From Styela clava (Eukaryota): a stretch of 64,000 nucleotides of DNA. The stretch is from positions 16,182,001 to 16,246,000 of the forward strand of contig NC_135253.1 of the NCBI RefSeq assembly GCF_964204865.1. The letters are read 5' to 3'. The position numbers were made by a program. Positions 48,001 to 57,000 of this stretch are shown in pieces (position 1 is the first letter of the stretch; every line of letters begins with the position of its first letter).

Positions 48001-51000
48001 AACTGCCTTTTTGTCGCTGGCTTTGCTGGCGAAGTCTCGTCTTTGTTTGTAGTTTTGACCCTGAGATTGTTGCAGACGAGCTAGCGGTAATTTTGTCATG
48101 AATACTCATAATCACGATCATTTGGCTGGTGTGGGAGGCGTCTTTCAAACTCTTGATGAAATTGATTTCGCTAGAGGCCCTTGGACGCCAGCTATGTATG
48201 GCGACTACCCCGCTATTAAGCTGTATTTGCAGAAGGGCGGCGAGCCGAATTTGATGGATTCTTCTGGTTACACACCATTGGTAATTATATTTATTTTTTC
48301 AAAAAAATAGCAATAAATAGATGTTACCAAAAATAATTAATGGAAGAACTGAAATTTTTACGTAATGTTGCAACAGTAGGTACGGTACCGGTATTTTGAC
48401 TTTGACTCAGCAGCCTTTAGGATTTTATCTTGCAAATCGGGTTGATCTGAGTTGTGTCTAGTTTTGCTTTTTAGAGGGGTTATAAGCAGTGGTGGGATCC
48501 AGCCGGTTTGCACCGGTTCTATCTGTCTATAGAGCCGTCTAACGGAATTTTATGAGATCAACAAACCGGTTAGCAAAACTGAAAAAACATGACTTTTTGT
48601 AACAGAACCGGCTGAAAAATATGACTTTTGTATGGCATGGATGGAACCGACTGACCTAAAATTTAAATCTCACCACTGGTTATAAGTATATTTCAGTATT
48701 CTCAGTATTCACCAGGTCATATAAAATAAATAAAAATAGAATTTACAGATTTGAGAGACATGATTCAATGATTGAAAAATTTGAAATTCACACACAAACT
48801 TTTTTCTTAAATTTGAATAGACGATACTTGTATTATATGTAGATACTCATATTATAATAATTCAGTTCCTCATAAACAAAACAACAGTTGTCTTCCCAAT
48901 TTTCATAAATTGACCTTATAATATTACCTTCAACTTATGTTGAACACATACGAATACACAATTCAGCTATTAGTACGTTCAAGAGTAAGTACATAATAAA
49001 TTTGCATAATAGTTTGTTAATTATGAACAGTAGCTATATATTGATTCATTGACAGCATTATGCAGCACGGGGTGGATACTATAACATATGCAATGAGTTA
49101 ATTTTGTCTGGAGCAAGTGTTAATCACACAACAAAATCTGGGAAATCAACCTCTTTGCATCGTGCTGCATCACAGGGATGTAATGACGTAGTAAAACTAT
49201 TGATTAAAAATGGTGCAAACCCACGAATGATTGATGACGATGGAAAGACTGCTTTGCATAAGGTAATTTAACTCATAACGTTCTATAATAATATGAACAT
49301 CTAGATTTCTGAGAAGCAAATTAACAGTTTTGAATGTAATTTTATATAAAATTTGTGTCTTATTTTAATTAAGACTTTGTGGAAATGAGTTAAAAGAATT
49401 TAGAATGTTTACCTGATTGTGATTCGTGAGTGGGACAATAGATTATCACTTAGGAATTGTAATATTCTATCAGTGTAGAAAAATGGGTTTTTCAAAAATG
49501 GTTTTTGCCACACTTGTCCCAATTGTATAAATCTTCATATAAATAATCTAATCTCCTGCGAAGGTATTAAATCTATCCTAACCCAGATGCTAGAACATAG
49601 CATGAATCTCACTTGATATGCTTATTTTAACCATTTGCTAAATAGTAGTATATATCTACCTAACTCAAAACAGTGTGGGACAAGTGCGGCAAAGTGGGAA
49701 CGGTGTGCTAATACACAGGGCATGTCATTTTTGGGACCCCGCATATAAGTCATAGTTTATATTAATATCTCAATAAAGAGCTATGAGATCGGAATTTTAA
49801 TGAAAATTGAAATGATGATTTTGAGATATCATAATATTTTGAAGCATCTACTACCTGAATGGACCAGATTTATAAAGCTATATTGTTGCAAGAAAAAGTA
49901 TATATCTCTGTATATTGAAACATGTGTTATGAATACTTTTCAGGCAGCAGAAGGAAATCATGCTGAAGCTTGCAGGCTATTAATAGAAGCAGCGCCAGAT
50001 ACACAAAACGTATTGGATAAAAAAGTCAAATATCCCAAGGATTATGTCCAATGTACGGATGATCAGAAGGAAACTTATAAAGTTATGTGGTGGACTTGAA
50101 AGATATATTCATATCCATGGAATGAAATTCCGTCATTTTAAAAATCCGATCGATTTTAAAAATAGAAAAAAAAAGTCTGTATGAAGACCATGCTTATGGC
50201 GATAACAAGGGACAGAGAGACGCATTCAAACATTCATATTTCTTGACTTAATTCGAGTTTCAGCAATTTGGTCATTTTTAATTGTATGAGTATTCTCTTA
50301 ATTTCAAGTATCAAAAAATGACTGTGCAAAATTTAACATTTTTGATATACAAATTTATATTGTTCAATTTTATTTTGTTAAATTATTTATTCCGTTATTT
50401 TTATTCAACTTTACAGTAGAAGATAATTAATATATATTTTGATAATCTTTGACAATTAACAGAAACTAAATGAGTAGTTTAAGGTTACGTCAACTTGCGA
50501 TTTGGAGTAACAAACTGTGCAAGATACAGTAAGATTACTTTTCATTTTTTATTTTATTTTTTTGTTTAGTAGATATTCACAGAAAAAATATATCTCTAGA
50601 ATAAAAATTATCCTATGTATTTTATTATTTTGACAGCTTATATTGAACCAAATTGAAAGCATAATTTTTCATGTGACCCTATTATAAAATCCATCACTAT
50701 TGAGTCTGAGAAAAATTACAATCAAATACTGGTTATGGAAAATCTCCCGACTCCGACAAAATCAAATTTGGCATATGTAAGCCTTCTATTATAGACTGTT
50801 AAAAGCGTTTTGTGAACTTAATGTTCTTTGAATTTCTGACAATTTGGACTTCTTTTATCACCACTGAAAGTCTGTAATTCAACTCCACGTAGTTTGAAAA
50901 TATGACTCAGTCTCCATTGTTTAACTCCTGACAAAGTTGTCTAACTCCAACTTCATAGCCCAAAACACAATAAGAGGTGATTCTGTAATAGTATTCACTC

Positions 51001-54000: not shown

Positions 54001-57000
54001 TTCAGGCATTCTGTCCGCTTGCCTTTTGTTAACCATATATACCTGGTAATATGTTTTATGTATTTACCTGTGAAACATCTGCCAATCATGATGTGATGTT
54101 ATTTGACATTAAAGTATCTTTTAAAGTTGTTGTCTCTCCACTTTAATAAAAGCTGAAAGGTCACTCATATGGTGATTTATCAAGGTAGAGTTTTGCCGAT
54201 TCAGCAAAACGAGAGAAACAGGCCAGACATGACAGCAGTTAAGGGATGTACACTAAATTGTTGTTAAACTGGGTATGCTTCTACCGAATCAAGCATGATC
54301 TGATTCTGACAGACTTTGCCACATAAAATCAAGAACTTAAGATTAATAAATGTGACAATTATTAGCCAGTTAAAGTATAAAATGAGAATTAATATTTTTT
54401 GATATTTTCTAGACCAATGTATAATACGCACCCCCATATTTGTGAGACTAAATTTGACCATGAAAATGCGTATTATACGCGGAGAAATACGGTACTTCCT
54501 TCACTGTAAAAAAGAGAATTTTTATCGAAACAATGATTATCTTAATCATTCTGCATTCACCAAATTTAATTTTACTTTTCTTGTAGTCAATTTGCAGTGG
54601 TCTGTGAATTCTGTTCAACATGACCATTTTTTCCAATATGTCACTCCTCAAAAAAAAATATCACAAAGTAAACTATTTGGTTATAGCCATCTCTGGCAGT
54701 GGCAGACAGCCAGTTCAAATAGTGTATTACATTTTTACATTCATGCTTTTGTATTTTTTCTCATTGCAGGCCAAACGATTATCCCGACATTAAAAGACTT
54801 TTTACGAACTCCGATATTCAACATATTCCAGATTGTGGACATTGGGTCCATGCTGATAATCCTAAAGAATTTGCTTCTAGAGTCTCGAACTTTTTAGGCG
54901 GCAGTTGATATTTCACCTGAAATTTTTCAGTTCTTTTTTATGATATGCCTTTGACTAATAGCACTTTGTTGATATGTTTGTCTATATATATTTTTAAGTT
55001 ATTGATAGACTGCAATGAACTGATATCCTTGCTCAATTATCATCACAATTTACCAAACTTTCAATTTCTTCATAAAAATTTCGAAATACAATGGTTCTTC
55101 AAAATTTAGATGATGAAAAAAATTTTTTTTTTGTAAAATTTGCCATTTTTTCAATAACATTTAGATTCATATCTGATTTGGCATGCTTTTGCTGCAACAA
55201 ATATTCAGGAAGTTATTTCTGATACAGGAATGTATAACAAATGTGCATTCTCATACCTATAAGTTCAATTCAATACTTGGTGATTTACGTTTTCTTAAAT
55301 ATAAATTCTTGATTCATTATGTAAGGTGGTATACTTCGATGCTAGGCTACTGCCATTAATTTTACGTGGTGTTCTAAGTATCACTGTGTTTTTAGAAAAT
55401 AGATTTTTGTTATAGACGAAATATTTGTGGCGTGCTCAATCATATTTTTTCGTACATTCTACTCAAATTTATGTCTTTACAATGATAGATGTTGTTCTGC
55501 CCTTGATATGATATCAATACTTTCTCATTTGGTAATATTTTGATATGTTCTAAACATTTTGATTGGACATATTTATTTTATCTTTCTATTGTTAAACATC
55601 ATACTTCTTTAGAAATTAGGAACTCTAAACAAAGGCAATGACTACAATGATAAAGTGTTCCTCTTTTTTCATTTTGATATATTATTGATATATAAGACAT
55701 CTGACATAGCGAGTACGTAAATACCTGTAAGCAGCATGTTTATACTTGTCCGATAAAATTGTTAAATAAAAGTGATTTGGAGAGATGTTTCCCCTTGGCC
55801 CCAGAAAAATTCTTTTATACTTGCTTATTTTAAGATTGTTCACATGTTACATAACTGTCATTTTGATTCAAAACATTTAACCACTTGCTATATAGAAGTA
55901 TTACTAGCTGATTTTAATCTACCTATCTATCGCATGTTTACTTGGACTAATATTCAAATACTGCAACTAAGCTAAAACTTGTCAGGAGCGGAAATAAAAA
56001 AGGAATTTAGGGGGTTTTATTGACAAATTATCATTAAATATTCCAATTATTTACCTTAACAAAACTAGACATAGCCTCATTTTAAGTACAAATTTTCTAA
56101 CTAAGTTTGTAATGCTATATTTTTTTTTATTACAATGAATTTGTGTAAATTCTGAAAATATTTCAGTTAGGAAATAGTCTTCAAAAATCTAGTTTATTTA
56201 TTTCGTCACTGAGAAATGTCTTAAGACAATATTGAAATTTCCATCCACGAAGAGGCTCTATTATTTATAACCATTCTGAAATTTTATTTTTCTCTACATT
56301 CAGAATTAGCATAAATGTTTGTATATAAGAAAGTCTATGGCAGTGAAAGGCATTTGGCAACTGCCTTTCCACAACAATATAGATGCCGCCAAGGGAAGTA
56401 CGGAAGTTTGTGTAGTTGGAGTATTCGGCAAAAGTACTTGGGGGCATTCTTCTAAAAGTTGTGTTATTAATCGATTAACAAGAACCTATGAATTTCCAAT
56501 TCACAAACCTTTAAATATGGATCGAAAAAATGAAGATGAAAAAGACAATAGTTTTGAAAAATACATGTGAGTAGATAGTATACAACCATTTACACACAAT
56601 TTTATTTTATATGATTTTTTATATGATATTTTTGGAGTATAAAATGTTTTCAGTTATTATAAGACACGAAGTGTACATTTGCATTGTTTTGCTAATTTAT
56701 TGTTGTTGTTGGAAAACTACGCTTCTCTCTGCAACTGATGGATCAATCGATTTGCTGAATATTTTAATTATATATTCCAAATTTCTTGTCCTGTGGGATC
56801 CGATGTTTCATCAGAAAATTTGGGGCTAGTTCATTAATCGCCGTACTTCTAGTTGGGGTGGCATCATAACTATTTTCGCATATGTCATTTCTAACCCCCA
56901 CCTGGCTATGTCATACAATAATTACGTCATTACAACGTCACAGTGATGAAAGAGGACCAGTCAAAGTATACGGATTGTCACCCAAAACGCGCAGACGATC

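What the first reader, a model, noticed from the sequence alone, without database searches (positions are those of the whole stretch)
48098..56340. Candidate trans-spliced operon ANKRD39 - ABHD11 - SMG8
Seen: three unrelated genes on one strand. The ANKRD39 stop (50099) is only 370 bp from the ABHD11 ATG (50470). That gap has no AATAAA, no CpG-rich promoter-like patch, and ends in a T-rich acceptor. SMG8 also starts just after a strong acceptor (56303) in CpG-poor DNA. The only CpG-rich patch is upstream of ANKRD39 (~47800-48280). Known: ascidians such as Ciona have operons resolved by SL trans-splicing, with the upstream 3' end abutting the downstream acceptor. Inference: one promoter drives a polycistron linking a mitochondrial hydrolase and an NMD regulator. 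The ABHD11-SMG8 link is weaker (1.4 kb gap, with AATAAA near 55766 and 55993).
Basis: partly seen in the sequence, partly recalled or inferred. Interest (0 to 1): 0.7.

Follow-up and report, generated by a model that had tools for sequence, protein, structure and literature searches.

The report
Tightly packed genes, possible two-gene operon
Four unrelated housekeeping genes sit head to tail in a compact animal genome; one pair is close enough to be a sea-squirt-style two-gene operon, but sequence alone cannot show it, and either way the arrangement is of a well-known kind.

Summary
On the + strand lie a small ankyrin-repeat gene (48098-50099), an alpha/beta-hydrolase gene of the YbfF/ABHD11 type (50470-54908) and SMG8 (56337 to the window end). 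An unreported fourth gene, a single-exon VPS35L (43288-46233), lies upstream. Stop-to-ATG gaps are 1864, 370 and 1428 bp.

- 53% of 370-bp windows here lack AATAAA.
- Ciona promoters have no CpG islands.

The third is better than chance. The AG at 50416 follows 106 nt without any AG. On a combined score it looks like a real 3' splice site (empirical p 0.009; SMG8 0.041; VPS35L 0.073).

The species could not be identified and no transcript or synteny data were reachable, so SL trans-splicing is untested.

The ABHD11-SMG8 link would need a 1.4-kb 3' UTR that skips two AATAAA and one ATTAAA. That is far from Ciona operons, which have almost no intercistronic DNA.

My odds: separate promoters about 0.5, an ANKRD39-ABHD11 dicistron about 0.4, a three- or four-gene polycistron about 0.05. 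Both leading readings are known kinds, so interest is low.

The parts
43288..46233 (+). VPS35L, whole coding sequence in one exon.
   Evidence: One open frame. Residues 6-964 match human VPS35L chain 8p0v_O residues 4-941 at E 6.1e-269. Pfam gave no family.
43207..43259 (+). Acceptor-like AG (43258-43259), 28 nt before the VPS35L ATG, with 52 nt free of AG before it.
   Evidence: PWM 5.2. AG-free stretch 52 nt. Combined empirical p 0.073.
47469..48310 (.). CpG-normal, GC-richer patch over the 5' flank and first exon of the ankyrin gene. It is the likely promoter region of that gene.
   Evidence: CpG o/e is 1.0-1.16 at GC 0.46-0.48 in 47751-48250, against 0.55-0.61 in the gene bodies. It is the largest patch in the 125-nt scan.
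48098..48280 (+).
   Evidence: ATG at 48098 and a GT donor at 48281. Generic ankyrin matches in PDB. No Pfam hit at E<=0.01.
49056..49262 (+). Ankyrin-repeat gene, exon 2.
   Evidence: Pfam Ank at E 9.3e-15. Generic ankyrin matches in PDB.
49944..50099 (+). Ankyrin-repeat gene, exon 3, with stop at 50097-50099. The exons sum to 546 nt, giving 181 aa.
   Evidence: No Pfam hit.
50100..50469 (+). Gap 1, 370 bp at 24.6% GC. It is either the ankyrin gene's 3' UTR running up to the acceptor, or a short 3' UTR plus the hydrolase gene's own promoter and outron.
   Evidence: No AATAAA or ATTAAA; only variants AATGAA 50121, AATAGA 50161 and AATATA 50429. 7 CpG against 5.6 expected. No ATG in 50321-50469 (read).
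50309..50416 (+). Best candidate 3' splice site before the hydrolase ATG: AG at 50415-50416 after a T-rich tract and 106 nt without AG.
   Evidence: PWM 4.5. AG-free stretch of 106 nt against 18-88 for the 18 cis acceptors; only 0.56% of 6292 AGs reach that. Combined p 0.0089.
50461..50462 (+). Second acceptor-like AG, 7 nt before the ATG.
   Evidence: PWM 3.4. AG-free stretch 38 nt.
50470..54908 (+). Alpha/beta-hydrolase gene of the YbfF/ABHD11 type. Seven exons: 50470-50528, 51034-51181, 51575-51748, 51829-51904, 52613-52719, 53382-53572, 54770-54908. They sum to 894 nt, giving 297 aa.
   Evidence: All introns GT-AG and in frame. Abhydrolase_1 in exon 3 at E 7.5e-08. Best PDB hits are 7c4d_A at 1.9e-12 and YbfF 3bf7_A at 1.4e-11. 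A GHSLGG nucleophile elbow is seen in the exon 3 translation.
54909..56336 (+). Gap 2, 1428 bp, CpG o/e 0.52. It holds AATAAA at 55765 and 55993 and ATTAAA at 56033.
   Evidence: No repeat copy from elsewhere in the window. No ORF above 69 aa on either strand.
56256..56303 (+). Acceptor-like AG (56302-56303), 33 nt before the SMG8 ATG.
   Evidence: PWM 7.5. AG-free stretch 47 nt. Combined p 0.041.
56315..56317 (+). Upstream ATG, out of frame with SMG8. It opens a 46-codon frame that overlaps the SMG8 start and lies downstream of both acceptor-like AGs (56303, 56309).
   Evidence: ORF 56315-56455; sequence.
56337..64000 (+). SMG8, at least 11 exons, running off the window end: 56337-56566, 57602-57758, 58052-58146, 58779-58947, 59381-59470, 59881-60003, 60707-60870, 61749-61887, 62338-62531, 63151-63244, 63436-64000.
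   Evidence: Smg8_Smg9 hits in 8 of 11 exons, colinear over profile positions 4-549. PDB SMG8 6l54_B at E 1.7e-41.

Best explanation
This is a head-to-tail run of four unrelated housekeeping genes (VPS35L, a small ankyrin-repeat gene, a YbfF/ABHD11-type hydrolase, SMG8). They lie inside one CpG-depleted, probably gene-body-methylated, domain of a compact AT-rich animal genome.

The most likely arrangement is that each gene is its own transcription unit.
- The ankyrin gene is driven from the CpG-normal patch at 47.5-48.3 kb.
- The hydrolase gene is driven from an AT-rich, CpG-island-less promoter in or just before the 370-bp gap.
- SMG8 is driven from somewhere in the 1.4-kb gap.

The mRNAs of the hydrolase gene, SMG8 and probably VPS35L get their mature 5' ends by splicing at an acceptor 28-53 nt before the ATG. 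That splicing is either spliced-leader trans-splicing of a short outron or removal of a 5'-UTR intron.

Shown: the gene models, the gaps, the composition, and that the acceptors look better than chance.

Inferred: the promoters, the use of the acceptors, and methylation (from CpG o/e only).
For: - The ABHD11-SMG8 gap is 1428 bp and holds three canonical poly(A) signals. The VPS35L-ankyrin gap is 1864 bp, also with three, followed by a CpG-normal patch. These look like conventional gene ends and starts.
- In Ciona, only 1404 of 13801 genes (KY/HT) or 2909 of 15254 (KH) are operonic (PMC11155486; PMC2760879).
- In Ciona, 9850 genes are estimated trans-spliced against 1631 cis-spliced (PMC11155486).
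- In Ciona, outrons peak near 100 bp and promoters lack CpG islands (PMC4691747).
- Gap 1 is not CpG-depleted (o/e 1.25, 7 against 5.6 expected). It holds 6 CpG in 50130-50255.
- The acceptor signals are real-looking for three of the four genes (Fisher p 0.005). That fits spliced 5' leaders in general, not operons in particular.
- The species is not shown to trans-splice at all.
Against: - 370 bp must hold the upstream 3' UTR, a core promoter and the outron or 5' exon. That is tight.
- The gap has no canonical poly(A) signal for the ankyrin gene.
- If the species is Ciona-like, my rough base-rate estimate makes same-strand pairs this close more often operons than not. That estimate is inference, not computed from data.
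- The CpG patch in the gap is weak: 6% of 125-nt windows in the domain do as well.
- No TATA box or other promoter element could be called in the gap.
Confidence: 0.5

Rival explanations
1. The ankyrin gene and the hydrolase gene form a Ciona-type dicistronic operon. One promoter at about 47.9-48.05 kb makes a pre-mRNA that runs through both genes. The upstream mRNA is cleaved and polyadenylated at the very AG (50416, or 50462) to which the spliced leader is joined for the downstream mRNA. SMG8 and VPS35L are transcribed separately.
For: - Same strand, 370 bp from stop to ATG.
- The AG at 50416 looks like a real 3' splice site (p 0.0089). Only 316 nt separate it from the upstream stop, so its transcript must start in or before that short stretch.
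- There is no AATAAA or ATTAAA in the gap. 16 of 18 characterised Ciona operons likewise lack AATAAA within 40 nt of the boundary (PMC1488885).
- AATATA at 50429 lies 33 nt before the second AG at 50462.
- The only large CpG-normal patch in 43.3-56.7 kb lies before the ankyrin gene.
- The window resembles an ascidian genome in several respects: GC 34.8%, introns 80-1197 bp, mosaic CpG depletion, and repeat copies with normal CpG inside a depleted gene. Unmethylated transposons in Ciona are noted in PMC4776710.
Against: - The species is unidentified. There is no SL RNA gene in the window, and no transcript or synteny data.
- Absence of AATAAA is at chance level: 53% of windows.
- The AG-free criterion was added after I had seen the sequence.
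- Gap 1 is not CpG-depleted.
- A promoter with an outron of about 100 nt would fit in the gap (PMC4691747).
- In a species that does not trans-splice, this reading is impossible.
Confidence: 0.38
2. One reading: one promoter drives ankyrin gene, hydrolase gene and SMG8 (possibly VPS35L too) as a single polycistron resolved by trans-splicing at 50416 and 56303.
For: - Four same-strand genes lie in one continuous CpG-depleted domain, with gap 2 at o/e 0.52, as depleted as the gene bodies.
- T-over-A skew in gap 2 (-0.111) resembles that of the introns (-0.07 to -0.09).
- There is a good acceptor at 56303 (p 0.041).
- Operons of three to six genes exist in Ciona: 231 of 1310 (PMC2760879).
Against: - Ciona operons have a median of 1 bp between cistrons, with cut-offs of 68-100 bp. 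Same-strand trans-spliced neighbours about 2.3 kb apart are monocistronic (PMC7986045; PMC2760879).
- Here the hydrolase 3' UTR would have to be 1395 nt long and ignore AATAAA at 55765 and 55993 and ATTAAA at 56033.
- An out-of-frame ATG at 56315 would sit in the trans-spliced leader.
- CpG depletion of a spacer between two methylated genes does not require co-transcription.
Confidence: 0.05
3. The acceptor-like AGs are chance features of AT-rich DNA. All genes have plain promoters and unspliced 5' UTRs, and the species does not trans-splice.
For: - By PWM alone the sites are ordinary: 12-15% of random 60-nt windows for VPS35L and the hydrolase gene, and 33-37% for the ankyrin gene.
- The stronger p-values depend on a feature chosen post hoc.
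- The PWM rests on only 18 sites.
Against: - The combined statistic gives p 0.0089, 0.041 and 0.073 for three genes, with Fisher p 0.005. 256 decoy ATGs behave near nominally, with 7.0% at p<=0.05.
- 106 nt without AG exceeds every one of the 18 cis acceptors.
Confidence: 0.07

Closest known systems
Ciona SL-resolved operons without intercistronic DNA (Satou et al. 2006, 2008), for example the DTL-URM1-CHERP three-gene operon
   Same: - Same-strand, functionally unrelated housekeeping genes.
- A short stop-to-ATG distance for the first pair.
- No AATAAA near the putative boundary.
- An acceptor just before the downstream ATG.
- A single-exon gene next door; Ciona operons are rich in single-exon genes (PMC2760879).
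   Different: - Neither the abutting of poly(A) site and acceptor nor SL addition is shown.
- The species is unknown.
- The second junction has 1.4 kb of spacer with three canonical poly(A) signals, outside the <100 bp definition.
Monocistronic SL trans-spliced genes with short outrons (Ciona: outron peak about 100 bp, mean 438 bp; Yokomori et al. 2016)
   Same: - An AT/T-rich stretch ends in an unpaired-looking acceptor shortly before the ATG.
- There is no CpG island.
- It fits all three genes that have good acceptors.
   Different: - It needs a promoter inside, or overlapping, the 316 nt between the upstream stop and 50416. No promoter element was identified.
- SL addition is untested.
Nematode operons with an intercistronic region (about 100 nt in C. 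elegans; medians of 333-517 bp reported for some C. briggsae and Trichuris predictions, PMC7986045)
   Same: For ABHD11-SMG8, ATTAAA at 56033 lies 270 nt before the acceptor at 56303. That spacer length is seen in some nematode sets.
   Different: - Introns of 80-1197 bp and mosaic CpG depletion are unlike the nematodes I know (recalled).
- SL2-type specialisation and a U-rich element were not tested.
Ordinary 5'-UTR introns in tightly packed genes of species that do not trans-splice
   Same: An acceptor lies a few tens of nt before the ATG. Donor-like GT sites occur upstream at background density.
   Different: Three of four neighbouring genes would each need one. For the hydrolase gene, the 5' exon and intron would have to fit in 316 nt or overlap the upstream gene.

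Membership tests
Ciona-type SL-resolved operon | Adjacent genes on the same strand. | tested here: met
   All three genes (four with VPS35L) are on the + strand, in order and without overlap.
Ciona-type SL-resolved operon | The organism performs spliced-leader trans-splicing. | not testable with these tools
   - The species is unidentified, and no eukaryote sequence collection or RNA data is on hand.
- Rfam gave 0 matches in the window.
- The Ciona SL motif gave 6 matches at 3 mismatches against 3.1 expected, and none closer. That result is uninformative, because SL genes lie elsewhere in the genome.
Ciona-type SL-resolved operon | The downstream cistron's mRNA starts at an unpaired acceptor that receives the SL. 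| tested here: inconclusive
   Acceptor-like sites are better than chance before the hydrolase gene (p 0.0089) and SMG8 (p 0.041). Whether they are used, and whether by SL or by a cis donor, cannot be told. Upstream donors occur at background density.
Ciona-type SL-resolved operon | The upstream mRNA 3' end abuts the acceptor (intergenic distance under 100 bp, typically 0-1 bp). | tested here: inconclusive
   - Poly(A) sites cannot be seen in DNA.
- Pair 1 would need a 317- or 363-nt 3' UTR, which is plausible.
- Pair 2 would need 1395 nt and read-through of AATAAA at 55765 and 55993 and ATTAAA at 56033, which is unlikely.
Ciona-type SL-resolved operon | No canonical AATAAA within 40 nt upstream of the boundary (typical rather than defining: 16 of 18). 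| tested here: met
   There is none within 40 nt of 50416, 50462 or 56303. However, 53% of random 370-bp windows lack AATAAA altogether.
Ciona-type SL-resolved operon | One promoter and a polycistronic precursor RNA. | not testable with these tools
   This needs TSS-seq or CAGE, ATAC, and precursor-spanning reads.
SMG8 (Pfam Smg8_Smg9) | Colinear match to the family profile and to solved SMG8. | tested here: met
   8 of 11 exons match profile positions 4-549 in order. Two of those eight are weak: exon 1 is below the curated cut-off (14.9 against 22.5 bits). Exon 11 matches 6l54_B at E 1.7e-41. Exon 2 alone found nothing in PDB.
ABHD11 / YbfF-type alpha/beta hydrolase | Alpha/beta-hydrolase fold with a G-x-S-x-G nucleophile elbow; orthology to ABHD11 rather than to another hydrolase. 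| tested here: inconclusive
   - Fold and elbow are met. Abhydrolase_1 scores E 7.5e-08 in exon 3, which contains GHSLGG.
- Nearest solved proteins are YbfF-type esterases.
- Orthology to ABHD11 is not shown. 4 of 6 exons tested gave no Pfam hit at the thresholds used, and the Atlas gave only generic hydrolase leads below 0.9.
ANKRD39 | A small protein of ankyrin repeats that is orthologous to ANKRD39. | tested here: inconclusive
   - Ankyrin repeats are shown (Ank at E 9.3e-15 in exon 2).
- PDB and Atlas hits are generic ankyrin proteins.
- The likeness to human ANKRD39 in length and N-terminal motif is my recollection only.
VPS35L | Full-length similarity to VPS35L of the Retriever complex. 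| tested here: met
   E 6.1e-269, with query residues 6-964 aligned to residues 4-941 of the 963-residue chain 8p0v_O.

The most novel reading that the evidence does not exclude
The whole 21-kb CpG-depleted domain is one transcription unit. A promoter at the edge of the CpG-normal DNA (about 43.2 kb) drives VPS35L, the ankyrin gene, the hydrolase gene and SMG8. Trans-splicing at 43259, 50416 and 56303 resolves them, across spacers of 0.3-1.9 kb that contain canonical poly(A) signals. That would be an operon architecture unlike the spacer-less Ciona type, or operons in an animal lineage where none are described.
Probability: 0.03. Interest if true: 0.55.

Novelty: already known. Interest (0 to 1): 0.2.

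Why it matters
If the ankyrin-hydrolase pair is a true dicistron, it would be one more of the 1,310 candidate operons already described in ascidians. It would couple a putative mitochondrial hydrolase to a small ankyrin protein without any functional logic, as is usual there.

The more useful result is methodological.
- In AT-rich compact genomes, absence of AATAAA and of a CpG patch does not mark an operon.
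- A long AG-free stretch before an acceptor is a better sequence-only clue.

The out-of-frame upstream ATG before SMG8 would be worth a look as possible feedback control of a nonsense-mediated mRNA decay (NMD) factor.

Tried and rejected
- **Rfam, whole window, gathering thresholds:** 0 matches. There is no SL RNA, snRNA or tRNA to hint at the taxon.
- **Ciona 16-nt SL motif** (from Table 1 of PMC1488885): 6 matches at 3 mismatches against 3.1 expected, and none closer. Uninformative.
- **Acceptor PWM alone** (18 own sites): candidate sites are not unusual.
- **Corner test:** a first joint test of 'as good on both counts' is anti-conservative. I replaced it with a rank-product statistic with an empirical null.
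- **Donor PWM:** there is neither a strong donor nor a donor-free zone between the ankyrin gene's last exon and 50416. Best scores are 5.7 and 5.4 against a real-donor median of 6.1; about 2.2 sites at >=5 are expected in 471 nt and 2 are seen.
- **AT/GC skew as a mark of transcription:** gap 2 (-0.111) and 46234-47700 (-0.096) resemble introns. Gap 1 (-0.011, s.e. 0.060) says nothing.
- **CpG patch in gap 1:** 6% of windows do as well.
- **Self-BLAST of 42-64 kb against the window:** no repeat copy in either gap.
- **ESM Atlas on ankyrin exon 1 and hydrolase exon 6:** generic families only.
- **PDB with ankyrin exons 1 and 2:** generic ankyrin and designed repeat proteins.
- **Paper search** for any three of ANKRD39, ABHD11, SMG8, VPS35L, operon: 0 papers.

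- Species identification, synteny in other tunicates and mapping of SL reads. No eukaryote collection is on hand.
The operon lists of Satou 2006/2008 and of SLOPPR could hold this pair if the species is Ciona.

The joined spliced proteins were not assembled, searched or folded. All protein searches were done exon by exon.

Full report
**What is there**

The window is AT-rich (GC 0.285-0.427 per kb, 0.348 overall) and has no N. I do not take it for human. It has short introns, and VPS35L is encoded in a single exon.

Reading the + strand from 43 kb to the end gives four genes in a row.

(i) VPS35L. This is one open frame with its ATG at 43288 and stop at 46231-46233. Residues 6-964 align to residues 4-941 of human VPS35L (PDB 8p0v_O, E 6.1e-269).

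(ii) A 181-codon ankyrin-repeat gene in three exons (48098-48280, 49056-49262, 49944-50099).

(iii) A 297-codon alpha/beta-hydrolase gene in seven exons (50470-54908).

(iv) SMG8, in at least 11 exons from 56337, running off the window.

All 18 of 18 introns are GT-AG, and the exon lengths sum to 546, 894 and at least 2020 nt, in frame.

Every protein search was made exon by exon. The joined spliced proteins were not assembled, searched or folded.

**Gene identity**

SMG8 is secure.
- 8 of 11 exons hit Pfam Smg8_Smg9 in colinear order over profile positions 4-549. Exon 1 is below the curated cut-off. Exons 5, 7 and 9 gave no hit.
- Exon 11 matches solved SMG8 (6l54_B, E 1.7e-41).
- Exon 2 alone found nothing in PDB.

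The hydrolase gene is shown at family level.
- Abhydrolase_1 is found in exon 3 (E 7.5e-08), which contains a GHSLGG elbow.
- There is a weak Abhydrolase_6 hit in exon 7.
- Exons 2, 5 and 6 gave no hit.
- The nearest solved proteins are YbfF-type esterases.

The ankyrin gene has Ank repeats in exon 2 (E 9.3e-15) and no Pfam hit in exons 1 and 3. PDB and the ESM Atlas give only generic ankyrin or hydrolase neighbours.

The names ANKRD39 and ABHD11 are therefore plausible but not shown here. The likeness of the ankyrin protein to human ANKRD39 is my recollection.

**The observation**

The gaps from stop to ATG are 1864 bp (VPS35L to ankyrin gene), 370 bp (ankyrin gene to hydrolase gene) and 1428 bp (hydrolase gene to SMG8).

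Gap 1 has neither AATAAA nor ATTAAA. Gap 2 has AATAAA at 55765 and 55993 and ATTAAA at 56033. The first gap has AATAAA at 46984 and 47180 and ATTAAA at 46639.

The absence in gap 1 is what chance gives.
- 53% of 1273 windows of 370 bp lack AATAAA, and 37% lack both hexamers.
- Shuffles of the gap itself lack AATAAA 36% of the time.

**CpG**

The window is a mosaic.
- 12-43 kb has CpG o/e 1.19.
- The four-gene stretch has 0.55-0.70 in its gene bodies.
- The boundary is sharp, right at the VPS35L start.

The one large CpG-normal, GC-richer patch inside the stretch is at 47469-48310.

Gap 1, however, is not depleted. It has 7 CpG against 5.6 expected (o/e 1.25) at 24.6% GC, with 6 of them in 50130-50255. 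That patch is weak, because 6% of 125-nt windows in 43.3-64 kb do as well and there are 15 such patches. It speaks neither for nor against a promoter. Gap 2 is as depleted as the gene bodies (0.52).

**The acceptors**

I built a position-weight matrix (PWM) from the 18 cis acceptors of these genes. On that matrix alone, the best AG in the 60 nt before each ATG is ordinary.

| Gene | Best AG (PWM score) | Share of random 60-nt windows doing as well |
|---|---|---|
| VPS35L | 43259 (5.2) | 12-13% |
| Ankyrin gene | 48075 (1.3) | 33-37% |
| Hydrolase gene | 50416 (4.5) | 14-15% |
| SMG8 | 56303 (7.5) | 4-5% |

I then noticed that 50416 is preceded by 106 nt without any AG.
- That is longer than for any of the 18 cis acceptors (18-88 nt).
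- Only 0.56% of 6292 AGs in the window reach it.

A first 'as good on both counts' test is anti-conservative. I replaced it with a rank-product of the two tails, compared with 6394 null windows.

| Gene | Empirical p |
|---|---|
| Hydrolase gene | 0.0089 |
| SMG8 | 0.041 |
| VPS35L | 0.073 |
| Ankyrin gene | 0.69 |

The Fisher combined p is 0.005. The 256 decoy ATGs in introns and gaps behave near nominally, with 7.0% at p<=0.05.

The second feature was chosen after I had seen the sequence, so these values are somewhat generous. Even so, three of the four genes seem to carry a real 3' splice site 28-53 nt before the start codon.

**What that means**

A real acceptor before the ATG fits either SL trans-splicing or a 5'-UTR intron. 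It does not by itself say operon.

From the passages I read, Ciona operons are defined by the following.
- Same-strand genes with no intercistronic DNA. The poly(A) site of the upstream mRNA is the acceptor AG of the downstream one. 16 of 18 lack AATAAA within 40 nt (PMC1488885).
- Operationally, under 100 bp between gene models. That gives 1,310 operons with 2,909 of 15,254 genes, rich in single-exon genes (PMC2760879).
- RNA-seq-based prediction gives a median of 1 bp. Same-strand trans-spliced neighbours about 2.3 kb apart are monocistronic (PMC7986045).

On the other side:
- Most Ciona genes are trans-spliced on their own. Estimated totals are 9,850 trans-spliced against 1,631 cis-spliced, and only 1,404 of 13,801 genes are operonic in the newer model (PMC11155486).
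- Outrons peak near 100 bp, and promoters have no CpG islands (PMC4691747).
- About 29% of annotated Ciona 'promoters' are methylated (PMC4776710).

**Pair 1 (ankyrin gene to hydrolase gene)**

For a dicistron:
- Only 316 nt separate the upstream stop from a good acceptor.
- There is no canonical poly(A) signal.
- A weak variant, AATATA at 50429, lies 33 nt before the second AG at 50462.
- The only large CpG-normal patch is upstream of the ankyrin gene.

Against:
- The species is unknown.
- The gap is not CpG-depleted.
- A short 3' UTR plus a promoter and an outron of about 100 nt would fit in the gap.
- Donor-like GTs are at background density, so the acceptor cannot be called paired or unpaired.
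- AT skew of the gap is uninformative.

**Pair 2 (hydrolase gene to SMG8)**

A Ciona-type junction would need a 1395-nt 3' UTR running past three canonical signals. In addition, an out-of-frame ATG at 56315 lies downstream of both candidate acceptors (56303, 56309), so it would sit in the leader. CpG depletion and T-over-A skew of this gap resemble introns. That is compatible with transcription through it, but also with methylation simply spanning two neighbouring genes.

**Taxon**

No tool here holds eukaryote genomes.
- Rfam found nothing in the window.
- The Ciona SL motif has no close match: 6 hits at 3 mismatches against 3.1 expected. SL genes would not be expected here in any case.

The following fit an ascidian such as Ciona but do not prove one:
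- GC content.
- Intron sizes of 80-1197 bp.
- Four genes in 21 kb.
- Mosaic CpG depletion.
- Repeat copies that keep normal CpG inside a depleted gene (56.8-57.3 kb).
- Acceptors before three of four ATGs.

I put about 0.6-0.7 on a trans-splicing, operon-bearing lineage. This is inference.

**Verdict**

| Reading | Odds |
|---|---|
| Separate transcription units with spliced 5' leaders | about 0.5 |
| Ankyrin-hydrolase dicistron of the Ciona type, SMG8 separate | about 0.38 |
| Three- or four-gene polycistron | about 0.05 |
| Acceptors are pure chance, with plain promoters | about 0.07 |

Both leading readings are of known kinds. If the species is a sequenced ascidian, the answer is probably already in its operon annotation.

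Noticed in passing
window 43288-46233 (+): VPS35L is encoded by a single 2,946-nt exon, while its three neighbours have 3, 7 and at least 11 exons. As I recall, the human gene has many exons. This may be an old retrogene, or it may fit the excess of single-exon genes reported near Ciona operons. No poly(A) remnant was seen after the stop.
   Followed up: partly
window 26450-26862, 41943-43187, 56819-57260: A repeat family with about 100-bp terminal inverted repeats. A 1.2-kb copy ends about 100 nt before the VPS35L ATG, and a 0.44-kb copy sits in SMG8 intron 1. The copies keep CpG o/e of 1.0-1.4 even inside the CpG-depleted gene.
   Followed up: partly
window 43000-43750: There is a sharp CpG boundary. 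12-43 kb has o/e 1.19, with local values up to 2.3. Depletion begins within about 250 nt of the VPS35L start (0.73, then 0.11).
   Followed up: partly
window 56315-56455 (+): An out-of-frame upstream ATG, 22 nt before the SMG8 start, opens a 46-codon frame that overlaps the start. This is a possible upstream ORF on the mRNA of an NMD factor. Feedback control of NMD factors by NMD is known from other systems (recalled).
   Followed up: no
window 1780-8661 (-): An AMP deaminase gene lies on the minus strand and runs off the left end. Four ORFs hit Pfam AMP_deaminase colinearly. A-over-T skew like that of this gene continues to about 28 kb (+0.066). Its 5' part, or another minus-strand transcript, may therefore extend across the otherwise ORF-poor 9-28 kb.
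   Followed up: partly
18 donor sites between 48281 and 63245: 5 of 18 intron donors have T at position +3 (gttggt, gtttga twice, gttaaa, gttagt). As I recall, that is high for most animals.
   Followed up: no
window 40371-40787 (+) and 41209-41472 (-): Two ORFs on opposite strands share a stretch of about 50 residues. This is an inverted duplication just upstream of the repeat element. Pfam gave no family for the first.
   Followed up: no
window 61351-61635 and 32387-32673: A further repeat pair, 72% identical and in inverted orientation. One copy is in an SMG8 intron.
   Followed up: no
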